Shown here: positions 9,683 to 44,250 of the stretch, piece by piece
How positions within the stretch are numbered: the first letter of the stretch is position 1
How the letters are laid out: every line of letters begins with the position of its first letter
Source of the DNA: Bacillota bacterium
GTDB taxonomy: Bacteria > Bacillota > Clostridia > Christensenellales > SZUA-584
Assembly: GCA_023391105.1 (NCBI GenBank)
Contig: JAEWBO010000013.1
Span: 10,433 to 74,432 of the forward strand
DNA length: 64,000 nucleotides
Direction of reading: 5' to 3'
Made by a program: the position numbers and the translations under genes
The notes under the pieces: model-generated
What the model was told of the DNA's origin: nothing
What the model saw: only the letters and a program-made list of their open reading frames with translations
Databases searched by the model: none

Positions 9683-10903
9683 TCAGCCAACTTTCTGCGC
9701 AAGTCCGGCTTGTATTAGTGACTTACTGCCAAGAAGTATAGCGCTGACGGCCACCATCAATATTCCAGTTCCAACAAGCAGCCACTCAATGGCGACAGTA
9801 TCAGACAGTGGCCCAAAGACGAGCATACCAAGCGGCATCACAGCGCTTGTAATCATGCCAAATAAACCGAATACCCGTCCAAGATACGATTCCTCGACCT
9901 TCTCCTGCAGCAGCACAGTCGCGGGTGTGTGAAACAATGGAATGACAACCCCAGTCACGCCCATCACGGCCAGATAAATCCAAAATATCGGTATGACACC
10001 CATGGCAAACGTACAGATACCAAGTGCAAACCCTGAAAAAACCATTGTGTAGATTCTGTTCTTAAAGCCGCCCCATGCGGCCATCACCAAACCGCCCAGA
10101 ACCATGCCTAAGGAAAAAGCAATCTCAATGGCGCTTAAGTGCCAGACTCCCCCGCTGAAGCTTCTTGTCACCTGCAATGGCGTTAAAAACGCGGCGGGGG
10201 CGGCAAGAAAAAAGAAAATCGCACTAAAGCTCAAGAATTTTATCACAAAACCATGTGATTTGATATAGGACAGGCCGCTGCGAAAATCGGAAAAATATCC
10301 TTCTTGTCTTTTTTGCGTCGCCTTTTCATGCGGCGGCACATGCAGAAAAAAGCTTAGTATACCAATCGCAATCGCGGCGGTTACAACATCGATGAAAAAT
10401 ATAATGTCAAGTGTAGCCACAGCCATAAGAGCTCCGCTCGCCATAGGCGACACAAGTGTGATCACGCTTTGAATGGTGCTGTTTATGGCGTTGACTCGTG
10501 TCAGCTTTTCTTCGGGAACAATTTGCGGAATAAACGCACCCACGGCCGGCTGCTGTATGCCCGTACCCAACGAGCGTACAGCCGATATCAGGAAAAGAAG
10601 CCAGAGCTCATCGTATCCAAGCATAAAGACAATGGCAAGCACAAGCGTGACAGTCGCAATGCCAGCATCCGAGAGAATAATGAGCGTTTTTCTATTGTAA
10701 CGATCTGCCCAGACTCCTGCGAATGGTGACAGAAAAAAGTTCGGTAAAAAACCACAGACAATCGAAAGCGTCATCATCAGCCCCGATTGTGTGGATAGTG
10801 TAATGTGCCAGAGAATCGCATATTGCACAAGTGAGGAACCAAGCAGAGACACCGTCTGACTCGATATAAAAATGGCGGCTTTTTTCTTCCAATCCGAACT
10901 CAT
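9683..10903 (-). CDS. MFS transporter (drug/macrolide-efflux-like)
   Basis: 406 aa with ~12 predicted TM helices. The WADRYNRK loop motif after TM2 is typical of MFS. Confidence 0.85.
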   Translation of the reverse strand: MSSDWKKKAAIFISSQTVSLLGSSLVQYAILWHITLSTQSGLMMTLSIVCGFLPNFFLSPFAGVWADRYNRKTLIILSDAGIATVTLVLAIVFMLGYDELWLLFLISAVRSLGTGIQQPAVGAFIPQIVPEEKLTRVNAINSTIQSVITLVSPMASGALMAVATLDIIFFIDVVTAAIAIGILSFFLHVPPHEKATQKRQEGYFSDFRSGLSYIKSHGFVIKFLSFSAIFFFLAAPAAFLTPLQVTRSFSGGVWHLSAIEIAFSLGMVLGGLVMAAWGGFKNRIYTMVFSGFALGICTFAMGVIPIFWIYLAVMGVTGVVIPLFHTPATVLLQEKVEESYLGRVFGLFGMITSAVMPLGMLVFGPLSDTVAIEWLLVGTGILMVAVSAILLGSKSLIQAGLAQKVG

Positions 10904-21011: not shown

Positions 21012-21962
21012 ATGACTGTTGGAATACCTAAAGGTCTTTTGTATTCAAAATATCATGTTTTCGCCGAGTCTTTTTTTCGTGCTCTTGGAATGGATATCAT
21101 AACGTCACCGGATACAAATAAAGAAATACTCGATGAAGGTGTAAAATCGTGTGTGGATGACGCTTGCCTGCCGATAAAAGTTTTTCACGGACATGTACAA
21201 TGGCTAAAGGATAAATGCGATTATTTGCTGATGCCGCGTTTATTTAGTCTTGAGAAAAGGAAGTCCCTTTGCCCTATGTTCTGCGGTCTTGTGGAGATGG
21301 TAAAAAGCAGTGTGTCAGAACTTCCTTTGCTTATCGATTCCCCCGTGTATTCTCTTGATAAGAAAAGCTTGCTGGAATGGGCCATGCAATCGGGCAGTTT
21401 CTTGACAAGAGATAAAGAAGCCATTGCAGATGCTTTTGAATGTGCGCTCAAAAAGCAGAAAAATCATATAACAGCACTTAACGATAATGATTACGCACAT
21501 CGTATTGCTCTGATCGGACATACATATAATATCCACGATGCTTTCATTAACATGCATCTGATTAAAAAACTGCACGCGATGGATATTGGTGTGGTAACAG
21601 CGGATAGCGTTGATAAAAATGATATTGCGCTTCAAACAGGCATGCTATACAAAGCTCCGTTCTGGTATTTTGCGCGAGAATACTACGGTGCAGCCATCAG
21701 CCTTTATAAAAACAGACTTGTCGATGGCTTTATTTATGTATCCGCTTTCTCGTGTGGTGTCGATTCAGTCGTTATCGAGCTGATTAAACTGGAAATGGGT
21801 TCTTATCCCTTCATGGTTTTAAAAATTGATGAGCATACCGGAGAAGCCGCAATAGACACGCGCATAGAGGCTTATGCGGACATGCTTAAAAGGAGGGCTC
21901 AAATTGGTTATCACCGTCCCGCGTATGGGCAACATATGCCTTGCCGCCAAAGCGTTTTTTGA
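21012..21962 (+). CDS. acyl-CoA dehydratase activase-related protein (DUF2229-type)
   Basis: The IGIPKGLLYSKYHVFAESFF...CLPIKVFHGH pattern is typical of the uncharacterised CoA-enzyme-activase domain. Confidence 0.75.
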   Translation: MTVGIPKGLLYSKYHVFAESFFRALGMDIITSPDTNKEILDEGVKSCVDDACLPIKVFHGHVQWLKDKCDYLLMPRLFSLEKRKSLCPMFCGLVEMVKSSVSELPLLIDSPVYSLDKKSLLEWAMQSGSFLTRDKEAIADAFECALKKQKNHITALNDNDYAHRIALIGHTYNIHDAFINMHLIKKLHAMDIGVVTADSVDKNDIALQTGMLYKAPFWYFAREYYGAAISLYKNRLVDGFIYVSAFSCGVDSVVIELIKLEMGSYPFMVLKIDEHTGEAAIDTRIEAYADMLKRRAQIGYHRPAYGQHMPCRQSVF

Positions 21963-23001
21963 AGCTGCGCGCATTCCCTATGTGATGCCCGAAATAATTA
22001 ACAAGCAGACGCTGCAAAACGGCGTTGCGCTGTCGCCGGATGAAATATGTCTGCCGTTTAAGATTTTAATGGGCAGCTATACTGACTGTATAAAAAAGGG
22101 CGCGGATACCATACTGATTACAGGAAGCTGCGGCCCGTGCCGTTTTGGAGAATACTGTGAGCTGCAGATGAAGCTGCTTGAAAAGCTCGGCACTCAGGCC
22201 AAAACGATCGTTCTTGATGCCCCAAAAGAGATCGGCAGACAGGAGCTTCTCAGACGAATCGGCTTGATTTCCAAGGCCAGCCCTTTAAGCGCAAAGCAAA
22301 AGCTCCTTGCCCTGCGGCAAGCTTTTCACATATTGTCGCTTGCGGACAGCATTGATGAAAAGGCGCACATGCTGGCCGGATACGAATTGAACAGCGGTGA
22401 ATGCAAGCAATTGATTATGGCATGCCATGAGCAGACAGAGAATTGCCGCAACCCACATGAAATACAGGTTCTTTTGGAGCATTATCTTCAAAAGCTGGGT
22501 AATGTAAAAACGGTTATGAAAAAAAAGCCGCTGCGGGTCGCTCTGATCGGAGAAATATATTCGATGGTTGAGCCTTTTGCGAATCTGTATATCGAAGAAA
22601 AGCTGATGGGCTACGGAGTGAGTTCAAGTCGGCTTATCACACCCAGCTGGTGGCTTAAGGACCTCATTGCCAAACCGCTTAAGCTTAATTCCATAGATAT
22701 CCGGCGCGCTGCCCACGACTATCTGCCTTATAACGCGGGCGGTCATGCGAAGGAATCGATTGGCCATGCCGTGATATGCCAAAGGAATAATTTTGACGGT
22801 GCAATACAGATCTTCCCGCTTGGATGTATGCCTGAAATCGTCGTCAAGGCGATTATGCCTGTTGTTCAACAAGAAAAGGATTTTCCGGTGTTGACATTGG
22901 TCGTGGATGAAATGACGGGTGAAGCCGGATATATGACAAGAATTGAAGCTTTTCTTGATATGCTGGAAGCGAAACGAAGAAAAGGAGAGATATCGGCTTG
23001 A
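21904..23001 (+). CDS. acyl-CoA dehydratase activase-related protein (HgdB/2-hydroxyacyl-CoA-dehydratase-like fold)
   Basis: Start chosen at TTG 21904, after AAAGGAGGG. The alternative is ATG 21925. GSCGPCRFGEY and DEMTGEAGYMTRIEAF blocks. It overlaps the end of the upstream gene. Confidence 0.75.
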   Translation: MVITVPRMGNICLAAKAFFEAARIPYVMPEIINKQTLQNGVALSPDEICLPFKILMGSYTDCIKKGADTILITGSCGPCRFGEYCELQMKLLEKLGTQAKTIVLDAPKEIGRQELLRRIGLISKASPLSAKQKLLALRQAFHILSLADSIDEKAHMLAGYELNSGECKQLIMACHEQTENCRNPHEIQVLLEHYLQKLGNVKTVMKKKPLRVALIGEIYSMVEPFANLYIEEKLMGYGVSSSRLITPSWWLKDLIAKPLKLNSIDIRRAAHDYLPYNAGGHAKESIGHAVICQRNNFDGAIQIFPLGCMPEIVVKAIMPVVQQEKDFPVLTLVVDEMTGEAGYMTRIEAFLDMLEAKRRKGEISA

Positions 23002-24008
23002 ATAAAGAGTTTTGCCTTGGCATCGATGTCGGTTCAGTCAGCACAAACATTGTACTGATCGATACAGACGGCAAGGTGGTTGAGAAGCTGTACTTGCGAA
23101 CGAATGGACGCCCGATTGAGGCCATATGTAAAGGCCTTTCCCTACTTAAAGGCAAACCGGATGAAAGTGCAGTTATCATTGGTGCGGGCACTACGGGCAG
23201 CGGCAGGCAGTTAGCTGGTGCGATGGTGGGCGCAGATGTCATGAAAAACGAAATCACAGCGCATGCTGTGGCCGCTTGTCATGTTGTTCCGGATGTGCGG
23301 ACAATACTGGAAATCGGCGGTCAGGATTCAAAGATCATTCTTGTCAAAGATGGTGTTGTTTGTGATTTTGCTATGAATTCCGTCTGCGCTGCAGGAACAG
23401 GCTCATTTTTGGACAGGCAGGCCTCTCGCCTTGAAATTCCCATAGAAGAGTTTGGCGGTTATGCGCTGCGCTCCAAGTCCCCCGTGCGTATTGCGGGGCG
23501 TTGTGCCGTGTTTGCCGAGTCAGATATGATCAGCAAGCAACAAGCGGGTCACAGCGCTGAGGATATTATTGCGGGACTATGTGAGGCTCTCGTTCGCAAT
23601 TACTTAAACAATCTCGCAAAAGGCAAAGAGATCAGAGGTCCTATATTGTTTCAAGGAGGTGTGGCCGCCAATGTCGGAATCCTTTCGGCATTTGAAAAAG
23701 CACTTGGCAAAAAAGTCATTATTCCGCAGCAATACGATGTGATGGGTGCTTATGGCGCTGCTTTAATTGCCAAAGATGCAGTGCCTGATAAACAAACCTG
23801 TTTTAAGGGCTTTGAGAACTTGAACCGTGAATTCATCACTGAGAGCATCGCCTGCACTGACTGCGCCAATATGTGTGAGGTCGCCAGAGTTATGGCGGAT
23901 GGCGATTGTATTGCCCACTGGGGTGACCGGTGCGGCAAATGGGGCAATAGGATGAACTCATCCATGCAAAATAAAGAGGAAAAGAACAAAGAGTCGGAAG
24001 TATCGTAA
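22998..24008 (+). CDS. BadF/BadG/BcrA/BcrD-type ATPase (CoA-substrate-specific enzyme activase)
   Basis: LGIDVGSVSTN and GGQDSK ATPase motifs. The cluster-bridging Cys motifs are NSVCAAGTGSFLD and GRCAVFAESD. TTG start after GGAGAG. Confidence 0.85.
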   Translation: MNKEFCLGIDVGSVSTNIVLIDTDGKVVEKLYLRTNGRPIEAICKGLSLLKGKPDESAVIIGAGTTGSGRQLAGAMVGADVMKNEITAHAVAACHVVPDVRTILEIGGQDSKIILVKDGVVCDFAMNSVCAAGTGSFLDRQASRLEIPIEEFGGYALRSKSPVRIAGRCAVFAESDMISKQQAGHSAEDIIAGLCEALVRNYLNNLAKGKEIRGPILFQGGVAANVGILSAFEKALGKKVIIPQQYDVMGAYGAALIAKDAVPDKQTCFKGFENLNREFITESIACTDCANMCEVARVMADGDCIAHWGDRCGKWGNRMNSSMQNKEEKNKESEVS

Positions 24009-24108
24009 GCCAATTCTTTTCTTTTGTTAAAGAACAAATATTCAAAGAAACTCATAGTATACATCAGCAAACAATACATGTTTGTTCTCGATGAAAGGAG
24101 TTTTTTTC

Positions 24109-24543
24109 ATGCCAGATGGAATAAATACATCAAGTGATATGGAAATCGCGCAGCGCGGCGGACGTGGCGGTTTCCCGGGCGGTGGTCCGCGTGGCGGCTT
24201 CCCAGGCAGAGGATTCCCGCGCGGTGGTTTTCCCCGCAGGCGGTTTCCCCGGAGATTTCCGGTAAGACGCTTTCCCAGATTCTTTTTCTTCCCAATTGGC
24301 TTCCCGACCGGACGGTGCTTTTTTATAGATCAATTTGGCCGGTGCTGTGACCAATTTGGCCGGTGCTGTGACCGATTTGGCAGGTGTGTCTTCGATAACA
24401 GATTCGCAGATAACCGTGTCGCGTTTGGTCCGCAGTCAGACGGCTGGTTCGGCATACCGGGAAGTTGGGATATGATGCCGGATTATGATGACATGGCGGA
24501 TTATGACATGGACGATATGGACGATATGGACGACTTTAGCTAA
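24109..24543 (+). CDS. extreme low-complexity protein (144 aa): RGG/RFP-repeat basic N-half, DQFGRCC repeats, acidic D/M tail
   Basis: AAAGGAG SD 9 nt before the ATG at 24109, and a strong hairpin terminator 48 nt after the stop. No family recognised. Confidence 0.6.
   Translation: MPDGINTSSDMEIAQRGGRGGFPGGGPRGGFPGRGFPRGGFPRRRFPRRFPVRRFPRFFFFPIGFPTGRCFFIDQFGRCCDQFGRCCDRFGRCVFDNRFADNRVAFGPQSDGWFGIPGSWDMMPDYDDMADYDMDDMDDMDDFS
24328..24390 (+). repeat. three tandem 21-bp units inside the low-complexity gene (encode DQFGRCC / DQFGRCC / DRFGRCV)
   Basis: gatcaatttggccggtgctgt | gaccaatttggccggtgctgt | gaccgatttggcaggtgtgtc, read directly. Confidence 0.9.
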
Positions 24544-24590
24544 GATAGCAGAAATAATTCTCATGCAATATGTCGTATATCGTTTAAAAT

Positions 24591-24616
24591 GGTCACTGGT
24601 AAGTATTCCAGTGACC
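24591..24616. terminator. bidirectional terminator between convergent genes
   Basis: GGTCACTGG/CCAGTGACC 9-bp perfect stem with flanking A/T-rich tracts. Confidence 0.65.
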
Positions 24617-24656
24617 ATTATTCTTGACTCATAAAAGTGGAGCTTAAGGTGAGCGC

Positions 24657-25001
24657 TTAATAGGGTTTTATTGTTTGGTTGACGTCAAGCAATCCGTTTA
24701 AGTAGTCAATGCATTGTGTGACCATGTTGTGGTACCCCTGTGTGGCCTTCATATACGCCTTCACTTCGCTTGCTTCAAGAAAAGCCTTGTTTTCATGAAA
24801 TAGGTTGTTCAAGTGAGAGTTGACCTGATCCTCCGGAAAGTCATGATGCATGATCCTCGCATGTTCTTTCTCGAAGTTCATCATAGCTCTGCCGAGCCTT
24901 GGGTTTTTCATGATAAGCCTGCGCTGCTTGACCACTTCATTAAATTCCAACGTCGCCTTGAGAGCGTTTGCAAGATCCTGCAGTTCTTTTTTGGGTAACA
25001 T
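24657..25001 (-). CDS. YlbF/YmcA-like (UPF0342) helical regulator protein
   Basis: 114-aa all-helical protein whose pattern resembles the YlbF family. This is a weak call. Confidence 0.5.
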   Translation of the reverse strand: MLPKKELQDLANALKATLEFNEVVKQRRLIMKNPRLGRAMMNFEKEHARIMHHDFPEDQVNSHLNNLFHENKAFLEASEVKAYMKATQGYHNMVTQCIDYLNGLLDVNQTIKPY

Positions 25002-26287: not shown

Positions 26288-26369
26288 AAATCATCTTTAC
26301 TTGGCATTCGCATATTTAGAGCCAGAATTGAAAAACTAAACCATGATATTATCATACAAGGAGACAGGC

Positions 26370-27314
26370 ATGAGCGAACAGGACAAGCAGTCAAAAGCGT
26401 TATCGGCCCGCTGCGCTTATCAACTCGCAGACGTGGAGAAAACAGCCCCTCAATATATATCCATCAGTCCCAGATGGCTGACAAGATTCCTGGAATGGAA
26501 ACCACTTGAGTCGGGCATATTCCGCCTTAATAAGGTGAGAAATGGTCAAGATCTGCTGGAGACACTGTGCACCCAGTCTAACGGAGAAGACATTCCGGAA
26601 GGCTATATTGATTATGAGCCAGAGCCCCGCGAATACATTCTTAGCTCCGTATCTTCTATTATAAAAATCGAAACACGCGTATCAGATATATACAGTAAGC
26701 CATATGATCAGATCAAGGAACAACTGCGACTTGGCATGGAGAGCATCAAAGAGAAACAGGAAAGCCTCATCATCAACAGCGATGATTATGGGCTGCTCAA
26801 AAACGTAGGCGATGCGCAAAGAATCAAAACGCGCAATGGTTCGCCCACGCCGGATGATCTCGACGATATGATCGCCAAGGTATGGAAGCAGCCGTCTTTC
26901 TTTCTTGCGCACCCCGCTGCCATCGCCGCGTTTGGCCGCGAATGCACACGCCGTGGCGTGCCGCCGGTGGCCGTTAACCTTCATGGCTCCCAGTTCATTA
27001 CATGGCGCGGTATTCCGCTTGTGCCTACGGACAAGCTTTTAATAGACGGACATAGAAAACCGCGCGACTCAAAGGGGAAAACGAATATTTTTCTGATACG
27101 CAGCGGCGAAGCCAATCAGGGTGTTATTGGCTTGTACCAGACAGGGCTGCCCGGAGAACAGTCTCGCGGCCTTTCCGTGCGGTTTATGGGCATCAACAAT
27201 CAGGGAATCGGTTATTACTTGCTGTCTATCTATTGCTCAACGGCCATTTTAACAGATGACGCGATTGCCGTTCTTGAGGACGTCGAAATCGGAAATTATT
27301 ATGATTATCAATAA
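26370..27314 (+). CDS. family 2A encapsulin nanocompartment shell protein (SrpI-like), no cNMP-binding insertion
   Basis: 314 aa from the ATG at 26370 (SD AAGGAG). I recognise these blocks from family 2A shells: ISPRWLTRFLEWKPLESGIFRLNKV, TRVSDIYSKPYDQIKEQLRLGMESIKEKQE, TPDDLDDMIAKVWKQPSFFLAHPAAIAAFGRECTRRGVPP, FITWRGIPLVPTDK, LTDDAIAVLEDVE. A desulfurase follows immediately. Confidence 0.85.
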   Translation: MSEQDKQSKALSARCAYQLADVEKTAPQYISISPRWLTRFLEWKPLESGIFRLNKVRNGQDLLETLCTQSNGEDIPEGYIDYEPEPREYILSSVSSIIKIETRVSDIYSKPYDQIKEQLRLGMESIKEKQESLIINSDDYGLLKNVGDAQRIKTRNGSPTPDDLDDMIAKVWKQPSFFLAHPAAIAAFGRECTRRGVPPVAVNLHGSQFITWRGIPLVPTDKLLIDGHRKPRDSKGKTNIFLIRSGEANQGVIGLYQTGLPGEQSRGLSVRFMGINNQGIGYYLLSIYCSTAILTDDAIAVLEDVEIGNYYDYQ

Positions 27315-28776
27315 TAATCTGTACGACATTGAAAGCGGTACGTTAAACCAGGATAAGCTCATAAAAGAATCGGTCGCTTCGCTGGCAAAAATGTATTTCC
27401 CCGAATTTAATCCGTTGTATTCTCAAACATCCGAACCGTCAATCGAAGCGGCGGATTTATTTGCCGAACGAATTCGCGTTGATTCCCTGCTTAAATTGGA
27501 CAAAGATGATACAGCATTGGATAGTGACGAAGGCTTAGACGGTACGCGAAAAGACTTTCCTATTCTTTCTGAAAAAGTGAACGGACATCCGCTTGTGTGG
27601 TTCGATAACGCCGCGACCACGCAAAAGCCGCAATGCGTGATCGATCGAATCAAGGCGTTTTACGAGCATGAAAACTCGAATGTGCACCGCGGCGCACATT
27701 CGCTTGCCAGAAGAACGACAGATGCTTATGAAGACGCACGCGCGAAAGCTGGCGCTTTTCTCAACGCGTCCACGACTCAAGAGATCGTTTTTGTTCGCGG
27801 CACCACGGAAGCCATCAACCTTGCGGCGCATTCGTATGGTCTCCCCCATCTTCATGATGGCGATGAGGTGCTAATCACACAGCTTGAACACCATGCAAAC
27901 ATCGTACCTTGGCAGATCGTCTGCGCCAAAACAGGCGCAAAGCTAAAGGCGTCGCCGGTTAACGAGTACGGGCAGGTTGATATGGCAGCGTTTGAAAAGT
28001 TGCTCAGCAATAAGACAAAGCTGGTGGCCATCACGCATGTGTCCAATGCCATCGGTACGGTGACACCAGTCGCACAAATGATTCAAATTGCACACCAGTA
28101 TGGCGCCAGAGTGTTTGTAGACGGCGCACAGGCGGTGGCGCATCAAGCTATAGATGTGCAGGTGCTCGATTGTGACTTTTACGCCTTCTCAGGTCATAAG
28201 GTGTTCGGGCCAACCGGTATTGGGGTTCTGTATGCAAAATCAGAGTTGCTTGAAGACATGCCGCCCTATCAGGGCGGCGGCAGTATGATCGAGGATGTCT
28301 CATTGGAGAGCACAAAATACAAAGCCCCTCCCCATCGTTTTGAAGCGGGAACGGGCAATATTGCGGGTGCAATCGGGCTTGGCGCGGCACTTGATTACGT
28401 CAGACACGTGGGGCTTAATCGTATTGAGCAATACGAAAAACGCTTGCTCTTACACGCTTGTGATTCTTTGAAAGGTGTCCCAGGTCTCAAAATAATAGGC
28501 AAGCCGCAAGCGGGAATTGTCTCGTTTTTGCTGAATGGCGTTTCCCCGGAAGAAGTCGGAAAGCATCTCGACCAGCAAGGCATCGCCGTCAGGGCCGGTC
28601 ATCATTGCGCTCAGCCGATCTTGCGGTATCTTGGCTATGAAAGCACCTTGCGCGTATCACTTGCACTTTACAACACACGATCTGAAATTGACCGTCTTGT
28701 AAACGCACTTAAGAATATCGGCAGAGCCACATCATATTGGTCTTTCCCGCCTATTCCTCAAGTAATGCCTGATTGA
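27301..28776 (+). CDS. SufS-type cysteine desulfurase with ~80-aa N-terminal extension (putative encapsulin cargo)
   Basis: The ATG at 27301 overlaps the shell gene end by 14 nt. The core begins at RKDFPIL...WFDNAATTQKP. PLP lysine in FSGHK and catalytic Cys in RAGHHCAQP. Confidence 0.9.
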   Translation: MIINNNLYDIESGTLNQDKLIKESVASLAKMYFPEFNPLYSQTSEPSIEAADLFAERIRVDSLLKLDKDDTALDSDEGLDGTRKDFPILSEKVNGHPLVWFDNAATTQKPQCVIDRIKAFYEHENSNVHRGAHSLARRTTDAYEDARAKAGAFLNASTTQEIVFVRGTTEAINLAAHSYGLPHLHDGDEVLITQLEHHANIVPWQIVCAKTGAKLKASPVNEYGQVDMAAFEKLLSNKTKLVAITHVSNAIGTVTPVAQMIQIAHQYGARVFVDGAQAVAHQAIDVQVLDCDFYAFSGHKVFGPTGIGVLYAKSELLEDMPPYQGGGSMIEDVSLESTKYKAPPHRFEAGTGNIAGAIGLGAALDYVRHVGLNRIEQYEKRLLLHACDSLKGVPGLKIIGKPQAGIVSFLLNGVSPEEVGKHLDQQGIAVRAGHHCAQPILRYLGYESTLRVSLALYNTRSEIDRLVNALKNIGRATSYWSFPPIPQVMPD

Positions 28777-43390: not shown

Positions 43391-43555
43391 TTATGTCCGT
43401 GACCTTTCGGCCATCTCGATTGCCTCACGAACAATGTTACCGCAATTCCTTGATGAAACACTGCCCCATCCTTCGCTTGCTACGATATCTTCAACACCCA
43501 GCCGCTTTGCAATATCATGTTTCAAGGCTTCTGACATTACCTTGTGTCTAGACAT
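43391..43555 (-). CDS. small acid-soluble spore protein, alpha/beta type (54 aa; missed by the 60-aa track cutoff)
   Basis: My translation: MSRHKVMSEALKHDIAKRLGVEDIVASEGWGSVSSRNCGNIVREAIEMAERSRT. GGAGG SD 8 nt upstream. Confidence 0.75.
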   Translation of the reverse strand: MSRHKVMSEALKHDIAKRLGVEDIVASEGWGSVSSRNCGNIVREAIEMAERSRT

Positions 43556-43701
43556 TTTAAATACCTCCCATCCATATTCACGGCAAATTCCGCCGTTAAG
43601 AATAGTATTCCCCGATTTTTTATCACTAAGCTAGCCAACATGAAGCAATAAAGTGCAAATTATTCTATAGAATATTGCCCGGGTACTTTATCTGCGCTTC
43701 T

Positions 43702-44250
43702 CTAAAGAATGAAGAAATAAGAAACAACCGAAGCAAAGACAGAACCGATCACATTAAAAATCATATCAAGGTCAGTATCCTTGAGATTTTTCTGCATTTT
43801 TGTATGCTTTATCTTGTCTAGCACGAACTCTATTATCTCAAATAATGCGCCGATGGCTATTCCAAGCACTAAAACAAATATCGCAGCGTACATTTTGGGA
43901 GTGACTTCTGGGAGCAAAATTTTATCAATCAAAGAGTAAAAGAAAAGCGCGAAAGAAAATGATCCAAATGCATGAAGATATCGGTCAAATTTCTTTGATT
44001 CCATAAACCGATTTTTGTAGTAACCAAAGAACGTCTGGATAAAAATCGAGGTCATCACCAAAACAAGTATCAGCATTGGCACATTGATTCCAAAAATAAG
44101 ATCTGCAAGAACGTAGAGAAAAAACAAAAGCGAACTCGTTAAAGTCGCCTGTAATTGAAGCTTGTTCTTTTGCTTTGCGAACATATATATGATAAAAGCT
44201 TCTATCAACGAATAAGCTATTAAAAAAATGATAAATAGCGTAAGACTCAT
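43702..44250 (-). CDS. polytopic membrane protein of unknown function
   Basis: ~5 TM helices. Start at the ATG at 44250 (MSLTLFII...). Confidence 0.65.
   Translation of the reverse strand: MSLTLFIIFLIAYSLIEAFIIYMFAKQKNKLQLQATLTSSLLFFLYVLADLIFGINVPMLILVLVMTSIFIQTFFGYYKNRFMESKKFDRYLHAFGSFSFALFFYSLIDKILLPEVTPKMYAAIFVLVLGIAIGALFEIIEFVLDKIKHTKMQKNLKDTDLDMIFNVIGSVFASVVSYFFIL

What the first reader, a model, noticed from the sequence alone, without database searches (positions are those of the whole stretch)
24109..24543. Tripartite extreme low-complexity protein: RGG/RFP repeats, DQFGRCC tandem repeats, poly-acidic D/M tail
The sequence is MPDGINTSSDMEIAQRGGRGGFPGGGPRGGFPGRGFPRGGFPRRRFPRRFPVRRFPRFFFFPIGFPTGRCFFIDQFGRCCDQFGRCCDRFGRCVFDN...MMPDYDDMADYDMDDMDDMDDFS. 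The ORF has a proper SD and its own terminator, so it is unlikely to be noise. The strongly basic Arg/Gly/Phe/Pro half and the strongly acidic tail give built-in charge complementarity, of the kind seen in condensate- or coacervate-forming RGG proteins. Seven Cys residues lie in 21-bp DNA tandem repeats (24328-24390), which suggests cross-linking as in spore-coat proteins, or metal binding. I know of no bacterial family like it.
Basis: seen in the sequence. Interest (0 to 1): 0.6.

Follow-up and report, generated by a model that had tools for sequence, protein, structure and literature searches.

The report
Repeat-built candidate spore-coat protein family
This odd 144-residue repeat protein is a real, conserved gene of uncultured spore-forming Christensenellales, and its conserved late-sporulation (sigma-K type) promoter points to an undescribed structural protein of the spore surface.

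Summary
The ORF at 24109-24543 (+) is real. It has a Shine-Dalgarno site and a strong terminator hairpin. Its frame is under purifying selection: pN is 0.11-0.36 while pS is saturated at about 0.75. It belongs to a small unannotated family, with no Pfam, NCBIfam or PDB match, found only in uncultured Christensenellales/Clostridia MAGs.

The layout is conserved across the family:
- an MPDG..AQRG cap;
- a variable Arg/Gly/Phe/Pro repeat arm of about +10 charge, almost without Lys;
- an aromatic RFPRFFFFP..GFP patch;
- a fixed Cys module, C-x8-CC-x5-CC-x5-C or C-x8-CC-x5-C;
- a WYGxPGxWDMMPD motif;
- an acidic tail of about -11 charge.

Arm and tail charges co-vary (r = -0.69), so net charge stays near zero.

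New here: 26 of 29 family genes carry AC-N15-18-CATAnnnTA 42-59 nt upstream of the start codon. That is the sigma-K promoter type. The same type precedes cotJA in these genomes. The genome encodes SpoIVA and SigK.

Best reading (about 0.6): a late mother-cell, lineage-specific spore coat or exosporium building block. Self-association by charge and by Arg-aromatic contacts, and locking by its cysteines, are inferred, not shown. No expression data could be obtained.

The parts
24032..24035 (+). -35 element GAAC (AC at 24034-24035) of a sigma-K-type promoter
   Evidence: AC-N17-CATAGTATA was read. The AC is conserved upstream of 26/29 distinct family genes. According to PMC3789822, -35 is AC for sigma-K and ATA for sigma-E.
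24053..24061 (+). -10 element CATAGTATA of the sigma-K-type promoter
   Evidence: Background rate of the relaxed motif: 7/297 neighbouring ORFs and 0.36% of random 130-nt windows. The same motif type lies upstream of cotJA in 16/19 relatives and upstream of the dpaA-like gene of this genome.
24066..24086 (+). 5'-proximal hairpin of the leader (AGCAAACA / loop AUACA / UGUUUGUU). It may be an mRNA stabiliser or a palindromic operator.
   Evidence: -6.0 kcal/mol, z = -2.2. A hairpin at the same place occurs in 15/23 distinct leaders, with at least five unrelated stem sequences. It is absent in 8.
24094..24100 (+). Shine-Dalgarno AAAGGAG, 8 nt before the ATG
   Evidence: AAAGGAGTTTTTTT-ATG is conserved in the genus.
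24109..24543 (+). CDS, 144 aa (P0001)
24109..24159 (+). Conserved N-terminal cap MPDG...AQRG (residues 1-17). It has no signal peptide.
   Evidence: Alignment A1: M1, P2, D3 and R16 are invariant or nearly invariant.
24154..24279 (+). Basic Arg/Gly/Phe/Pro repeat arm (residues 16-57, +13). The copy number varies between homologues.
24280..24312 (+). Aromatic patch FFFFPIGFPTG (residues 58-68)
   Evidence: P62 and P66 are conserved and RFPRFFFFP..GFP is the consensus.
24313..24390 (+). Cys module RC-x8-CC-x5-CC-x5-C (residues 69-94). It is the only part with moderate structural confidence.
   Evidence: The pattern is fixed in 44/69 homologues, and a one-unit-shorter form occurs in 20/69. C70, C79, C80 and C86 are invariant. 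AF2 pLDDT is 76-81 over residues 70-90, with short strands.
24391..24462 (+). Variable linker ending in the conserved W[YF]GxPGxWD motif (residues 95-118; the motif continues to residue 121)
   Evidence: W120 and D121 nearly invariant.
24463..24540 (+). Acidic Asp/Met/Tyr tail (residues 119-144, -12)
   Evidence: The tail charge tracks the arm charge across the family.
24588..24619 (+). Intrinsic terminator hairpin shared with the convergent YlbF-like gene
   Evidence: -20.4 kcal/mol, z = -5.26, followed by UUAUUCUU.

Best explanation
The gene encodes a lineage-specific structural protein of the outer spore layers (coat or exosporium) of sporulating Christensenellales.

**Proposed course**
1. 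Late in sporulation, sigma-K RNA polymerase in the mother cell transcribes a monocistronic mRNA from GAAC-N17-CATAGTATA. This is inferred from a conserved promoter. What is shown is its conservation and its co-occurrence with cotJA.
2. A strong SD site, often a 5' hairpin, and a terminator give abundant product. This is inferred.
3. The protein has no signal peptide, so it stays in the mother-cell cytoplasm, like coat proteins. The sequence shows this.
4. It is a disordered, nearly neutral block polyampholyte. Its Arg/Gly/Phe/Pro arm of about +11 is balanced by an Asp-rich tail of about -13. The balance is shown and co-varies across the family.
5. The tail either masks the arm in cis until deposition or pairs with arms of neighbouring molecules in trans. 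Arg-aromatic contacts add cohesion: the family has 1200 Arg against 13 Lys and is 18% Phe+Tyr+Trp. This is inferred.
6. The fixed 4- or 6-Cys module then locks the layer, by disulfide exchange on oxidation or by binding metal. This is inferred.
For: **Real gene under selection**
- pN is 0.11-0.36 against a saturated pS.
- The frame is open in 20 of 41 related genomes.
- The gene has an SD site and a terminator.

**Sigma-K-type promoter**
- AC-N15-18-CATAnnnTA lies 42-59 nt upstream of the start codon in 26/29 distinct family genes, with diverged spacers.
- The three exceptions are a contig-cut locus and a tandem pair: the first copy is cut by the contig end and the second copy lies directly behind it (L038).
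- Background is 2.4% of neighbouring ORFs and 0.36% of random windows.
[quoted passage not shown] The B. subtilis sigma-K promoter has a 5-nt -35 element, a gap of 15 +/- 1 nt and a 10-nt -10 element (PMC517825). GAACA-15-TCATAGTATA fits this.

**Positive controls in the same lineage**
- cotJA (PF11007) carries the same motif in 16/19 relatives and in this genome.
- The strict motif GAAC-N16/17-CATAnnATA has only 6 hits in the genome. Three precede SD-ORFs: cotJA, a LysM-LysM-GH18 protein, and this gene.
- The dpaA-like gene has AC-N17-CATAAGATA.
- The sigK gene itself has the sigma-E-type ATA-N15-CATAAGCT.

**Sporulation capacity**
- SpoIVA is present at 394 bits.
- SigK scores 331.8 bits, above the equivalog cut-off of 298.65.

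**Protein properties that fit coat or exosporium proteins**
- There is no signal peptide.
- The AF2 model is disordered, with mean pLDDT 52.7.
- Cys is 4.2% against a 1.4% genome background.
- Repeat number varies between homologues.
- Taxonomic range is narrow: 2 of 19 genera sampled in the order and 32 clusters among 1.84 billion representatives.
- Known analogues are positively charged modular CotG-like proteins (PMC9765600) and the Cys-rich CdeC/CdeM (PMC6101409, PMC7677010).
Against: - There is no expression, proteomic or localisation evidence.
- No cultured host was found. All sources are MAGs or metagenomes.
- Promoter assignment rests on a consensus taken from Bacillus and Clostridioides.
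- A sigma-K regulon also holds non-structural genes.
- Four genomes of the same genus have SpoIVA but lack the family (G001, G006, G009, G012). It is therefore dispensable for sporulation.
- These are strict anaerobes, so disulfide locking would need oxygen exposure or another oxidant.
- YabG is absent, and the DpaA match is below its cut-off. The late sporulation programme of this lineage is therefore not textbook.
Confidence: 0.6

Rival explanations
1. The protein is expressed in the mother cell but is not structural. One form: a self-neutralised pro-peptide whose cationic Arg/Pro/Phe arm (with or without the Cys module) is released at mother-cell lysis as an antimicrobial or competitor-killing peptide, with the acidic tail acting as a masking pro-region. 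Another form: a Cys-based metal or redox buffer packed with the spore.
For: - The arm (RFPRRFPVRRFPRFFFFP) resembles proline/arginine-rich antimicrobial peptides in composition. This comparison rests on my own knowledge and was not tested.
- A charge-matched acidic region is typical of cationic peptide precursors, and arm and tail charges co-vary.
- The Cys number is even and the spacing is fixed.
- The sigma-K-type promoter fits release at lysis.
Against: - No protease, exporter or immunity gene is conserved nearby.
- No processing site is evident.
- The whole length, including the tail motif WYGxPGxWDMMPD, is conserved, as expected for one functional unit.
- No known metal-binding fold was matched.
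Confidence: 0.14
2. The upstream motif is not a sporulation promoter. It may serve another alternative sigma factor, or be an accidental conserved leader. In that case the protein is a vegetative or stress-induced disordered protein, for example an RGG-type nucleic-acid binder or chaperone.
For: - RGG-like repeats bind RNA in many systems (own knowledge).
- No direct expression data exist.
- Consensus matches alone are not proof of function (tool caveat).
Against: - The motif has both sigma-K hallmarks at fixed spacing in 26/29 genes.
- It is rare in the background.
- It recurs upstream of cotJA across the lineage.
- The family is confined to genomes that carry sporulation genes.
Confidence: 0.12
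3. The protein is a substrate or partner of the adjacent BcrAD/BadFG-activase plus DUF2229/HgdB-like system, for example a peptide modified by that radical-type enzyme.
For: The gene lies next to the 3' end of the activase gene in 16 of 28 loci, in two different orientations: co-directional and convergent.
Against: - It has its own promoter in both arrangements.
- Other ORFs intervene in some loci.
- Twelve loci, including the most distant ones, lack the neighbour.
- No RiPP-type enzyme is present.
- The adjacency is explained by genus-level synteny.
Confidence: 0.05
4. It is a spurious ORF in repetitive DNA, or the real coding frame is on the opposite strand.
For: - The DNA is low-complexity.
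- Antisense ORFs of 148-195 aa are open in a few homologous loci.
Against: - The sense frame is open at full length in all loci, with strong purifying selection.
- The start, SD site, promoter and terminator are conserved on the + strand.
- The antisense frames in the window are split into pieces of 41-74 aa.
Confidence: 0.02

Closest known systems
CotG and CotG-like modular spore coat proteins of Bacillus (Saggese et al. 2016; PMC9765600)
   Same: - It is a small, abundant-type, disordered protein built from tandem repeats of positively charged residues.
- Repeat number and sequence differ between species.
- The positive charge has to be balanced.
- It has late mother-cell (sigma-K) expression. 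This is known for CotG (own knowledge) and predicted here.
   Different: - There is no sequence homology.
- The basic residues are almost only Arg, whereas CotG is Lys/Arg/Ser-rich.
- Charge is balanced by a built-in acidic tail, not by CotH phosphorylation.
- No cotH lies next door; CotH-domain genes are on other contigs.
- It carries a Cys module that CotG lacks.
- The host is clostridial, not Bacillus.
Cysteine-rich exosporium or crust morphogenetic proteins: CdeC and CdeM of Clostridioides difficile (PMC6101409, PMC7677010); CotY/CotZ/ExsY of Bacillus
   Same: - It is a Cys-rich, lineage-restricted spore-surface protein of (in part) anaerobic Clostridia.
- Those proteins are sigma-K dependent and self-assemble into cross-linked layers.
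   Different: - There is no detectable homology (no Pfam hit).
- It is much smaller.
- The cysteines are confined to one 25-residue module with fixed spacing.
- The rest of the protein is an Arg/Gly/Phe/Pro arm and an acidic tail, which those proteins lack.
Eukaryotic RGG/RG-motif phase-separating proteins (FUS family, LAF-1, Ddx4 N-terminus)
   Same: - It has Arg-Gly repeats mixed with aromatic residues.
- It shows strong preference for Arg over Lys.
- It is disordered.
- It has blocks of opposite charge.
   Different: - It is bacterial and very short.
- It is Pro/Phe-rich (RGGFP, RRFP) rather than RGG/YGG.
- It has no RNA-binding domain.
- It has a Cys module.
- The likeness is compositional only, and phase separation is untested.
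Proline/arginine-rich antimicrobial peptides with anionic pro-regions (Bac5, PR-39 type)
   Same: It has a similar Arg/Pro/Phe composition in the arm, paired with a charge-matching acidic region.
   Different: - It has no signal peptide.
- It has no processing or export genes.
- It is bacterial and cytoplasmic.
- The comparison is from memory and was not tested.

Membership tests
Any curated protein family (Pfam-A, NCBIfam) or solved structure | Significant profile or fold match | tested here: not met
   - There were 0 Pfam and 0 NCBIfam families, the latter at E up to 1.
- A PDB profile search gave 0 hits at E up to 1.
- The best Foldseek PDB match had E = 3.3.
CotG-like modular coat proteins | Central tandem repeats rich in positively charged residues; disordered | tested here: met
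   - There is a 15-nt period array at 24166-24251.
- Residues 16-57 carry +13 with no acidic residue.
- pLDDT is below 50 over most of the arm.
CotG-like modular coat proteins | Chromosomal organisation: adjacent and divergent to cotH | tested here: not met
   - The neighbours are a BcrAD activase and a YlbF-like gene.
- The three CotH-domain ORFs of the genome are on contigs C23, C5 and C26, whereas this gene is on C29.
CotG-like modular coat proteins | Ser-rich repeats phosphorylated by CotH | tested here: not met
   The repeat arm contains no Ser or Thr, and family-wide Ser is 2.9%. Phosphorylation itself cannot be tested with these tools.
Sigma-K regulon (late mother-cell genes) | Promoter with -35 AC and -10 CATAnnnTA at about 16-17 nt spacing | tested here: met
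   - The window has GAAC-N17-CATAGTATA at 24032-24061.
- 26/29 family genes carry the motif.
- The consensus is taken from PMC3789822 and PMC517825.
Sigma-K regulon (late mother-cell genes) | Transcription dependent on sigK during sporulation | not testable with these tools
Cys-rich exosporium/crust proteins (CdeC, CdeM, CotY/Z, ExsY) | Sequence homology to those families | tested here: not met
   There was no Pfam hit of any kind, and no such names appear among the homologues.
Cys-rich exosporium/crust proteins (CdeC, CdeM, CotY/Z, ExsY) | Presence in spore surface layers and Cys-dependent multimerisation | not testable with these tools
   This needs spores or recombinant protein.
Endospore-forming host | Core sporulation genes present in the genome | tested here: met
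   - Present: SpoIVA, the SigK equivalog above its cut-off and CotJA.
- Absent: YabG.
- Uncertain: the DpaA match is only sub-threshold.
RiPP or bacteriocin precursor | Conserved adjacent modification, export or immunity genes | tested here: not met
   Neighbourhoods of 28 loci show no such genes. Only the activase operon, the YlbF-like gene and the Amidase_6 gene recur.
Encapsulin cargo | Consistent linkage to an encapsulin shell gene | tested here: not met
   The family 2A encapsulin module is within 6 kb in only 3 of 28 loci.

The most novel reading that the evidence does not exclude
The family is a self-contained 'one-component coacervate' building block of the spore surface. A cationic Arg/aromatic arm and a charge-matched acidic tail drive head-to-tail complex coacervation onto the forespore in the anoxic mother cell. 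The fixed CC-containing module then converts the liquid-like deposit into a solid, through disulfide exchange when the released spore first meets oxygen or through metal bridging. That would be a built-in, kinase-free alternative to the CotG/CotH charge-control system, and an oxygen-triggered hardening step for spores of strict anaerobes.
Probability: 0.18. Interest if true: 0.7.

Novelty: new variant of a known kind. Interest (0 to 1): 0.45.

Why it matters
Spore coats of Clostridia outside a few pathogens are almost unknown. Christensenellales are usually treated as non-sporulating or of unknown sporulation status.

This family gives three things:
- a concrete, easily recognised marker gene for late sporulation in an uncultured lineage;
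- a lineage-internal read-out of the sigma-K promoter type, shared with cotJA;
- a compact natural design for testing how disordered proteins assemble into a resistant shell. The design has an Arg/aromatic arm, a charge-matched acidic tail that co-varies with the arm, and a fixed Cys lock.

If the charge-balanced design works as proposed, it is a kinase-independent counterpart of the CotG/CotH system, and it could serve as a module for protein materials. If it does not, this remains one more lineage-specific hypothetical coat protein.

Tried and rejected
- **Curated families and structures.** Pfam, NCBIfam, a PDB sequence profile and a Foldseek PDB search gave nothing. The AF2 model is too disordered for fold comparison: pLDDT 52.7, and only residues 70-95 score moderately.
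- **Cultured host.** The one homologue with an old GenBank-style identifier (P0024) turned out to be from a JGI metagenome scaffold. All genome hits are MAGs.
- **Encapsulin cargo.** Rejected: the encapsulin is nearby in only 3 of 28 loci.
- **Operon with the upstream activase genes.** Rejected as the main reading. The gene keeps its own promoter and occurs without them in 12 loci.
- **Opposite-strand coding.** Rejected.
- **Phyletic correlation with sporulation.** Not informative: SpoIVA is present in 37 of 41 relatives, whether or not they have the family.
- **Promoter of spoIVA as a sigma-E reference.** No clear -35 could be read. The sigK gene's own promoter served instead.
- **Distant hits.** P0068, P0071 and P0073 are long proteins matched only over low-complexity stretches. 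P0070 is a signal-peptide, Pro-rich protein with CDQFGNCC x3. None was taken as a family member.

Full report
**1. Observation**

The window holds an ORF from ATG 24109 to the stop codon at 24541-24543.

Tandem Repeats Finder finds three DNA repeat arrays under the three protein blocks:
- a 15-nt period array at 24166-24251 (RGGFP units);
- a 21-nt unit, 2.7 copies, 94% matches, at 24331-24386 (DQFGRCC units);
- ATGGACGAT x2.9 at 24508-24533 (MDD units).

AAAGGAG lies 8 nt before the ATG. A 12-bp hairpin at 24588-24619 has -20.4 kcal/mol and z = -5.3, and is followed by UUAUUCUU. It serves as a terminator between this gene and the convergent gene at 24657-25001.

The composition is extreme: G 23, F 22, D 20, R 20, P 14, and no Lys, His or Leu. 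Residues 16-57 carry +13, residues 119-144 carry -12, and the net charge is -1. One correction: there are six cysteines (70, 79, 80, 86, 87, 93), not seven.

**2. It is a real gene of a real family**

- The word-indexed search of 5.8 billion proteins found 50 homologues. None has a Pfam domain, and the only names are 'hypothetical protein' or 'predicted membrane protein'.
- An exhaustive profile search of 1.84 billion representatives found only 32 clusters.
- In whole genomes, the frame is open in 20 of 41 relatives. These are almost all from the window's own genus plus one sister genus, that is 2 of 19 genera sampled in the order.
- Named records are all MAGs labelled Christensenellales, Christensenellaceae, Clostridia or Bacillota, from digesters, sediments and similar sources. 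The one candidate for an isolate turned out to be a metagenome scaffold.
- Codon-level comparison with the window's gene gives pN 0.11-0.36 against pS 0.49-0.97. Where dN/dS can be computed it is 0.05-0.14.
- The antisense frames in the window are broken into four pieces.

**3. Anatomy conserved across the family**

- The N-terminus is MPDG...[AV]QRG.
- An Arg/Gly/Phe/Pro (sometimes Met) repeat arm follows, and its copy number varies widely.
- Next comes RFPRFFFFP..GFP.
- Then comes a Cys module with fixed spacing: C-x8-CC-x5-CC-x5-C in 44 of 69 proteins and the one-unit-shorter C-x8-CC-x5-C in 20 of 69. The Cys count is therefore 4 or 6 in 65 of 69.
- A variable linker follows.
- Then comes W[YF]GxPGxWDMMPD.
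- The protein ends in an acidic Asp/Met/Tyr tail of variable length.

The family contains 1200 Arg but only 13 Lys. That is 0.1% Lys, against 5.8% in long ORFs of this genome.

The part before the Cys module averages +9.6 and the part after it averages -10.7. The two are anticorrelated (Pearson r = -0.69, n = 64). The spread of the net charge (sd 2.7) is far below what independent variation would give (4.5). These sequences are related, so the p-value is not a true probability. The pattern is still what selection for charge balance would produce.

AlphaFold2 with the family alignment predicts disorder, with mean pLDDT 52.7. The exception is the Cys module, with pLDDT 76-81 and short strands. 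Nothing in the PDB resembles it.

**4. The new evidence: a conserved sigma-K-type promoter**

*The motif in the window.* Upstream of the gene lies GAAC (24032-24035), then 17 nt, then CATAGTATA (24053-24061). This ends 47 nt before the ATG.

*Across the family.* AC-N15-18-CATAnnnTA sits 42-59 nt before the start codon in 26 of 29 distinct genes. The spacer and flanks have diverged completely in the more distant members. The three exceptions are trivial. One locus (L041) is cut 66 nt upstream of the start. The other two are the tandem pair in L038: the first copy is cut by the contig end and the second copy lies directly behind it.

*Background.* The same pattern occurs upstream of 7 of 297 other ORFs in the same loci, and in 0.36% of random 130-nt windows of the genome.

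*Literature.*
- The B. subtilis sigma-K logo is a 5-nt -35 element, a gap of 15 +/- 1 nt and a 10-nt -10 element (PMC517825). GAACA-15-TCATAGTATA fits this.

*Controls within the lineage.*
- The genome encodes SpoIVA and a SigK above the NCBIfam equivalog cut-off.
- The strict motif GAAC-N16/17-CATAnnATA has six hits in 2.77 Mb. The three that precede SD-ORFs are cotJA (PF11007), a LysM-LysM-GH18 protein and this gene.
- cotJA carries the AC...CATAnnATA motif in 16 of 19 relatives examined.
- The dpaA-like gene has AC-N17-CATAAGATA.
- The sigK gene itself has an ATA-N15-CATAAGCT promoter, as expected for initial sigma-E-dependent transcription.

I therefore read the element as a late mother-cell promoter. 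This is an inference from consensus and conservation, not a measurement.

**5. Leader**

Just downstream of the -10 element, 15 of 23 distinct leaders can form a hairpin (z below -1.5). At least five unrelated stem sequences occur. In the window the stem is 24066-24073 paired with 24079-24086. This could be a 5' mRNA stabiliser or a palindromic operator. Eight leaders lack it, so it is a secondary feature.

**6. Neighbourhood**

- In 16 of 28 loci the gene lies at the 3' end of a BcrAD/BadFG activase gene, the last gene of a DUF2229/HgdB-like operon. In some loci it is co-directional with that gene and in others convergent.
- A convergent YlbF-like gene of about 110 aa is an even more widespread neighbour. 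In three distant lineages it has the same promoter type.
- The family 2A encapsulin and cysteine desulfurase pair at 26343-28776 is near in only 3 loci.
- No modification, export or immunity genes recur.

I take the activase adjacency as synteny.

**7. Mechanism**

*Shown:*
- the gene, its family and its signals;
- the block-charge design and its co-variation;
- the fixed Cys spacing and the Arg-only basic arm;
- predicted disorder and lack of a signal peptide;
- a sporulation-capable host and a sigma-K-type promoter shared with cotJA.

*Inferred:*
- The protein is made late in the mother cell and deposited on the forespore.
- The acidic tail neutralises the arm in cis, keeping the protein soluble, or in trans, polymerising it head to tail. 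Arg-aromatic contacts add cohesion.
- The Cys module cross-links the layer or binds metal.

The nearest functional precedents are the positively charged, repeat-built, disordered CotG-like proteins, whose charge is offset by CotH phosphorylation (PMC9765600). The others are the Cys-rich self-assembling CdeC and CdeM of C. difficile (PMC6101409, PMC7677010). The present family is not homologous to either. It has no adjacent cotH and no Ser in its repeats.

**8. Verdict**

I put 0.6 on a spore-surface structural role. The rivals are:
- a mother-cell product with a non-structural role (0.14);
- a mis-assigned promoter, so a non-sporulation role (0.12);
- a partner of the activase system (0.05);
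- an artefact (0.02).

It is a new variant of a known kind: lineage-specific, low-complexity, Cys-bearing spore coat proteins. Interest is moderate at 0.45, because the design is unusual and testable, but no expression data or cultured host exists.

Noticed in passing
window 26343-28776: A family 2A encapsulin shell gene (NF041162, 485.7 bits) overlaps a class-V aminotransferase/cysteine desulfurase that has an N-terminal extension of about 110 aa. It is linked to the studied gene in only 3 of 28 loci.
   Followed up: partly
window 21012-24008: A three-gene DUF2229 / HgdB-like / BcrAD-BadFG activase operon sits next to the studied gene in 16 of 28 loci, in two orientations. Its upstream region carries a conserved TTTCGCATATTTTT box of unknown meaning.
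   Followed up: partly
window 24657-25001 (-): A weak YlbF/YmcA-like 114-aa gene (PF06133, 24.9 bits) is convergent with the studied gene and shares its terminator. The pairing is conserved even in distant loci (L020, L036, L043). In L043, L014 and L013 the gene has an AC-N17-CATAnnATA motif of its own.
   Followed up: partly
G000 contig C7 about 10183-10550 (+) and contig C30 about 43551-43790 (+): Two other small Cys-rich ORFs lie behind the same AC-N16/17-CATAnn(A)TA motif. One is 109 aa with CC/CCC runs. The other is 59 aa, a hydrophobic repeat ending in CDQKCC. Neither has a Pfam hit. They may be further coat or sporulation proteins.
   Followed up: partly
L039 (JBLNCA010000015.1, labelled Burkholderiales MAG137): This contig carries a family member and the same neighbours as the Bacillota contigs L036 and L040. 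It is probably mis-binned into a Burkholderiales MAG.
   Followed up: no
L038 1-650; G013:C1 1261508-1261927 and 2361828-2362223: The family gene is duplicated in some genomes. L038 has tandem copies, with the second lacking its own promoter. The closed genome G013 has two dispersed copies.
   Followed up: no
G000 whole genome: The YabG protease (PF05582) is absent. The best DpaA match is far below its cut-off (131 against 320 bits), although SpoIVA, SigK and CotJA are present. The late sporulation gene set of this lineage may therefore be atypical.
   Followed up: partly
protein P0002 (cluster representative, 99% identical to the window's protein): A near-identical variant has Gly in place of Cys79 (GRGCDQ). 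This breaks the otherwise fixed CC pair, so strain-level variation touches the Cys module.
   Followed up: no
protein P0070 (164 aa, metagenomic): This unrelated-looking secreted, Pro-rich protein carries CDQFGNCC x3, the same 7-residue Cys unit. It may be convergence or a distant offshoot, and its source is unknown.
   Followed up: no
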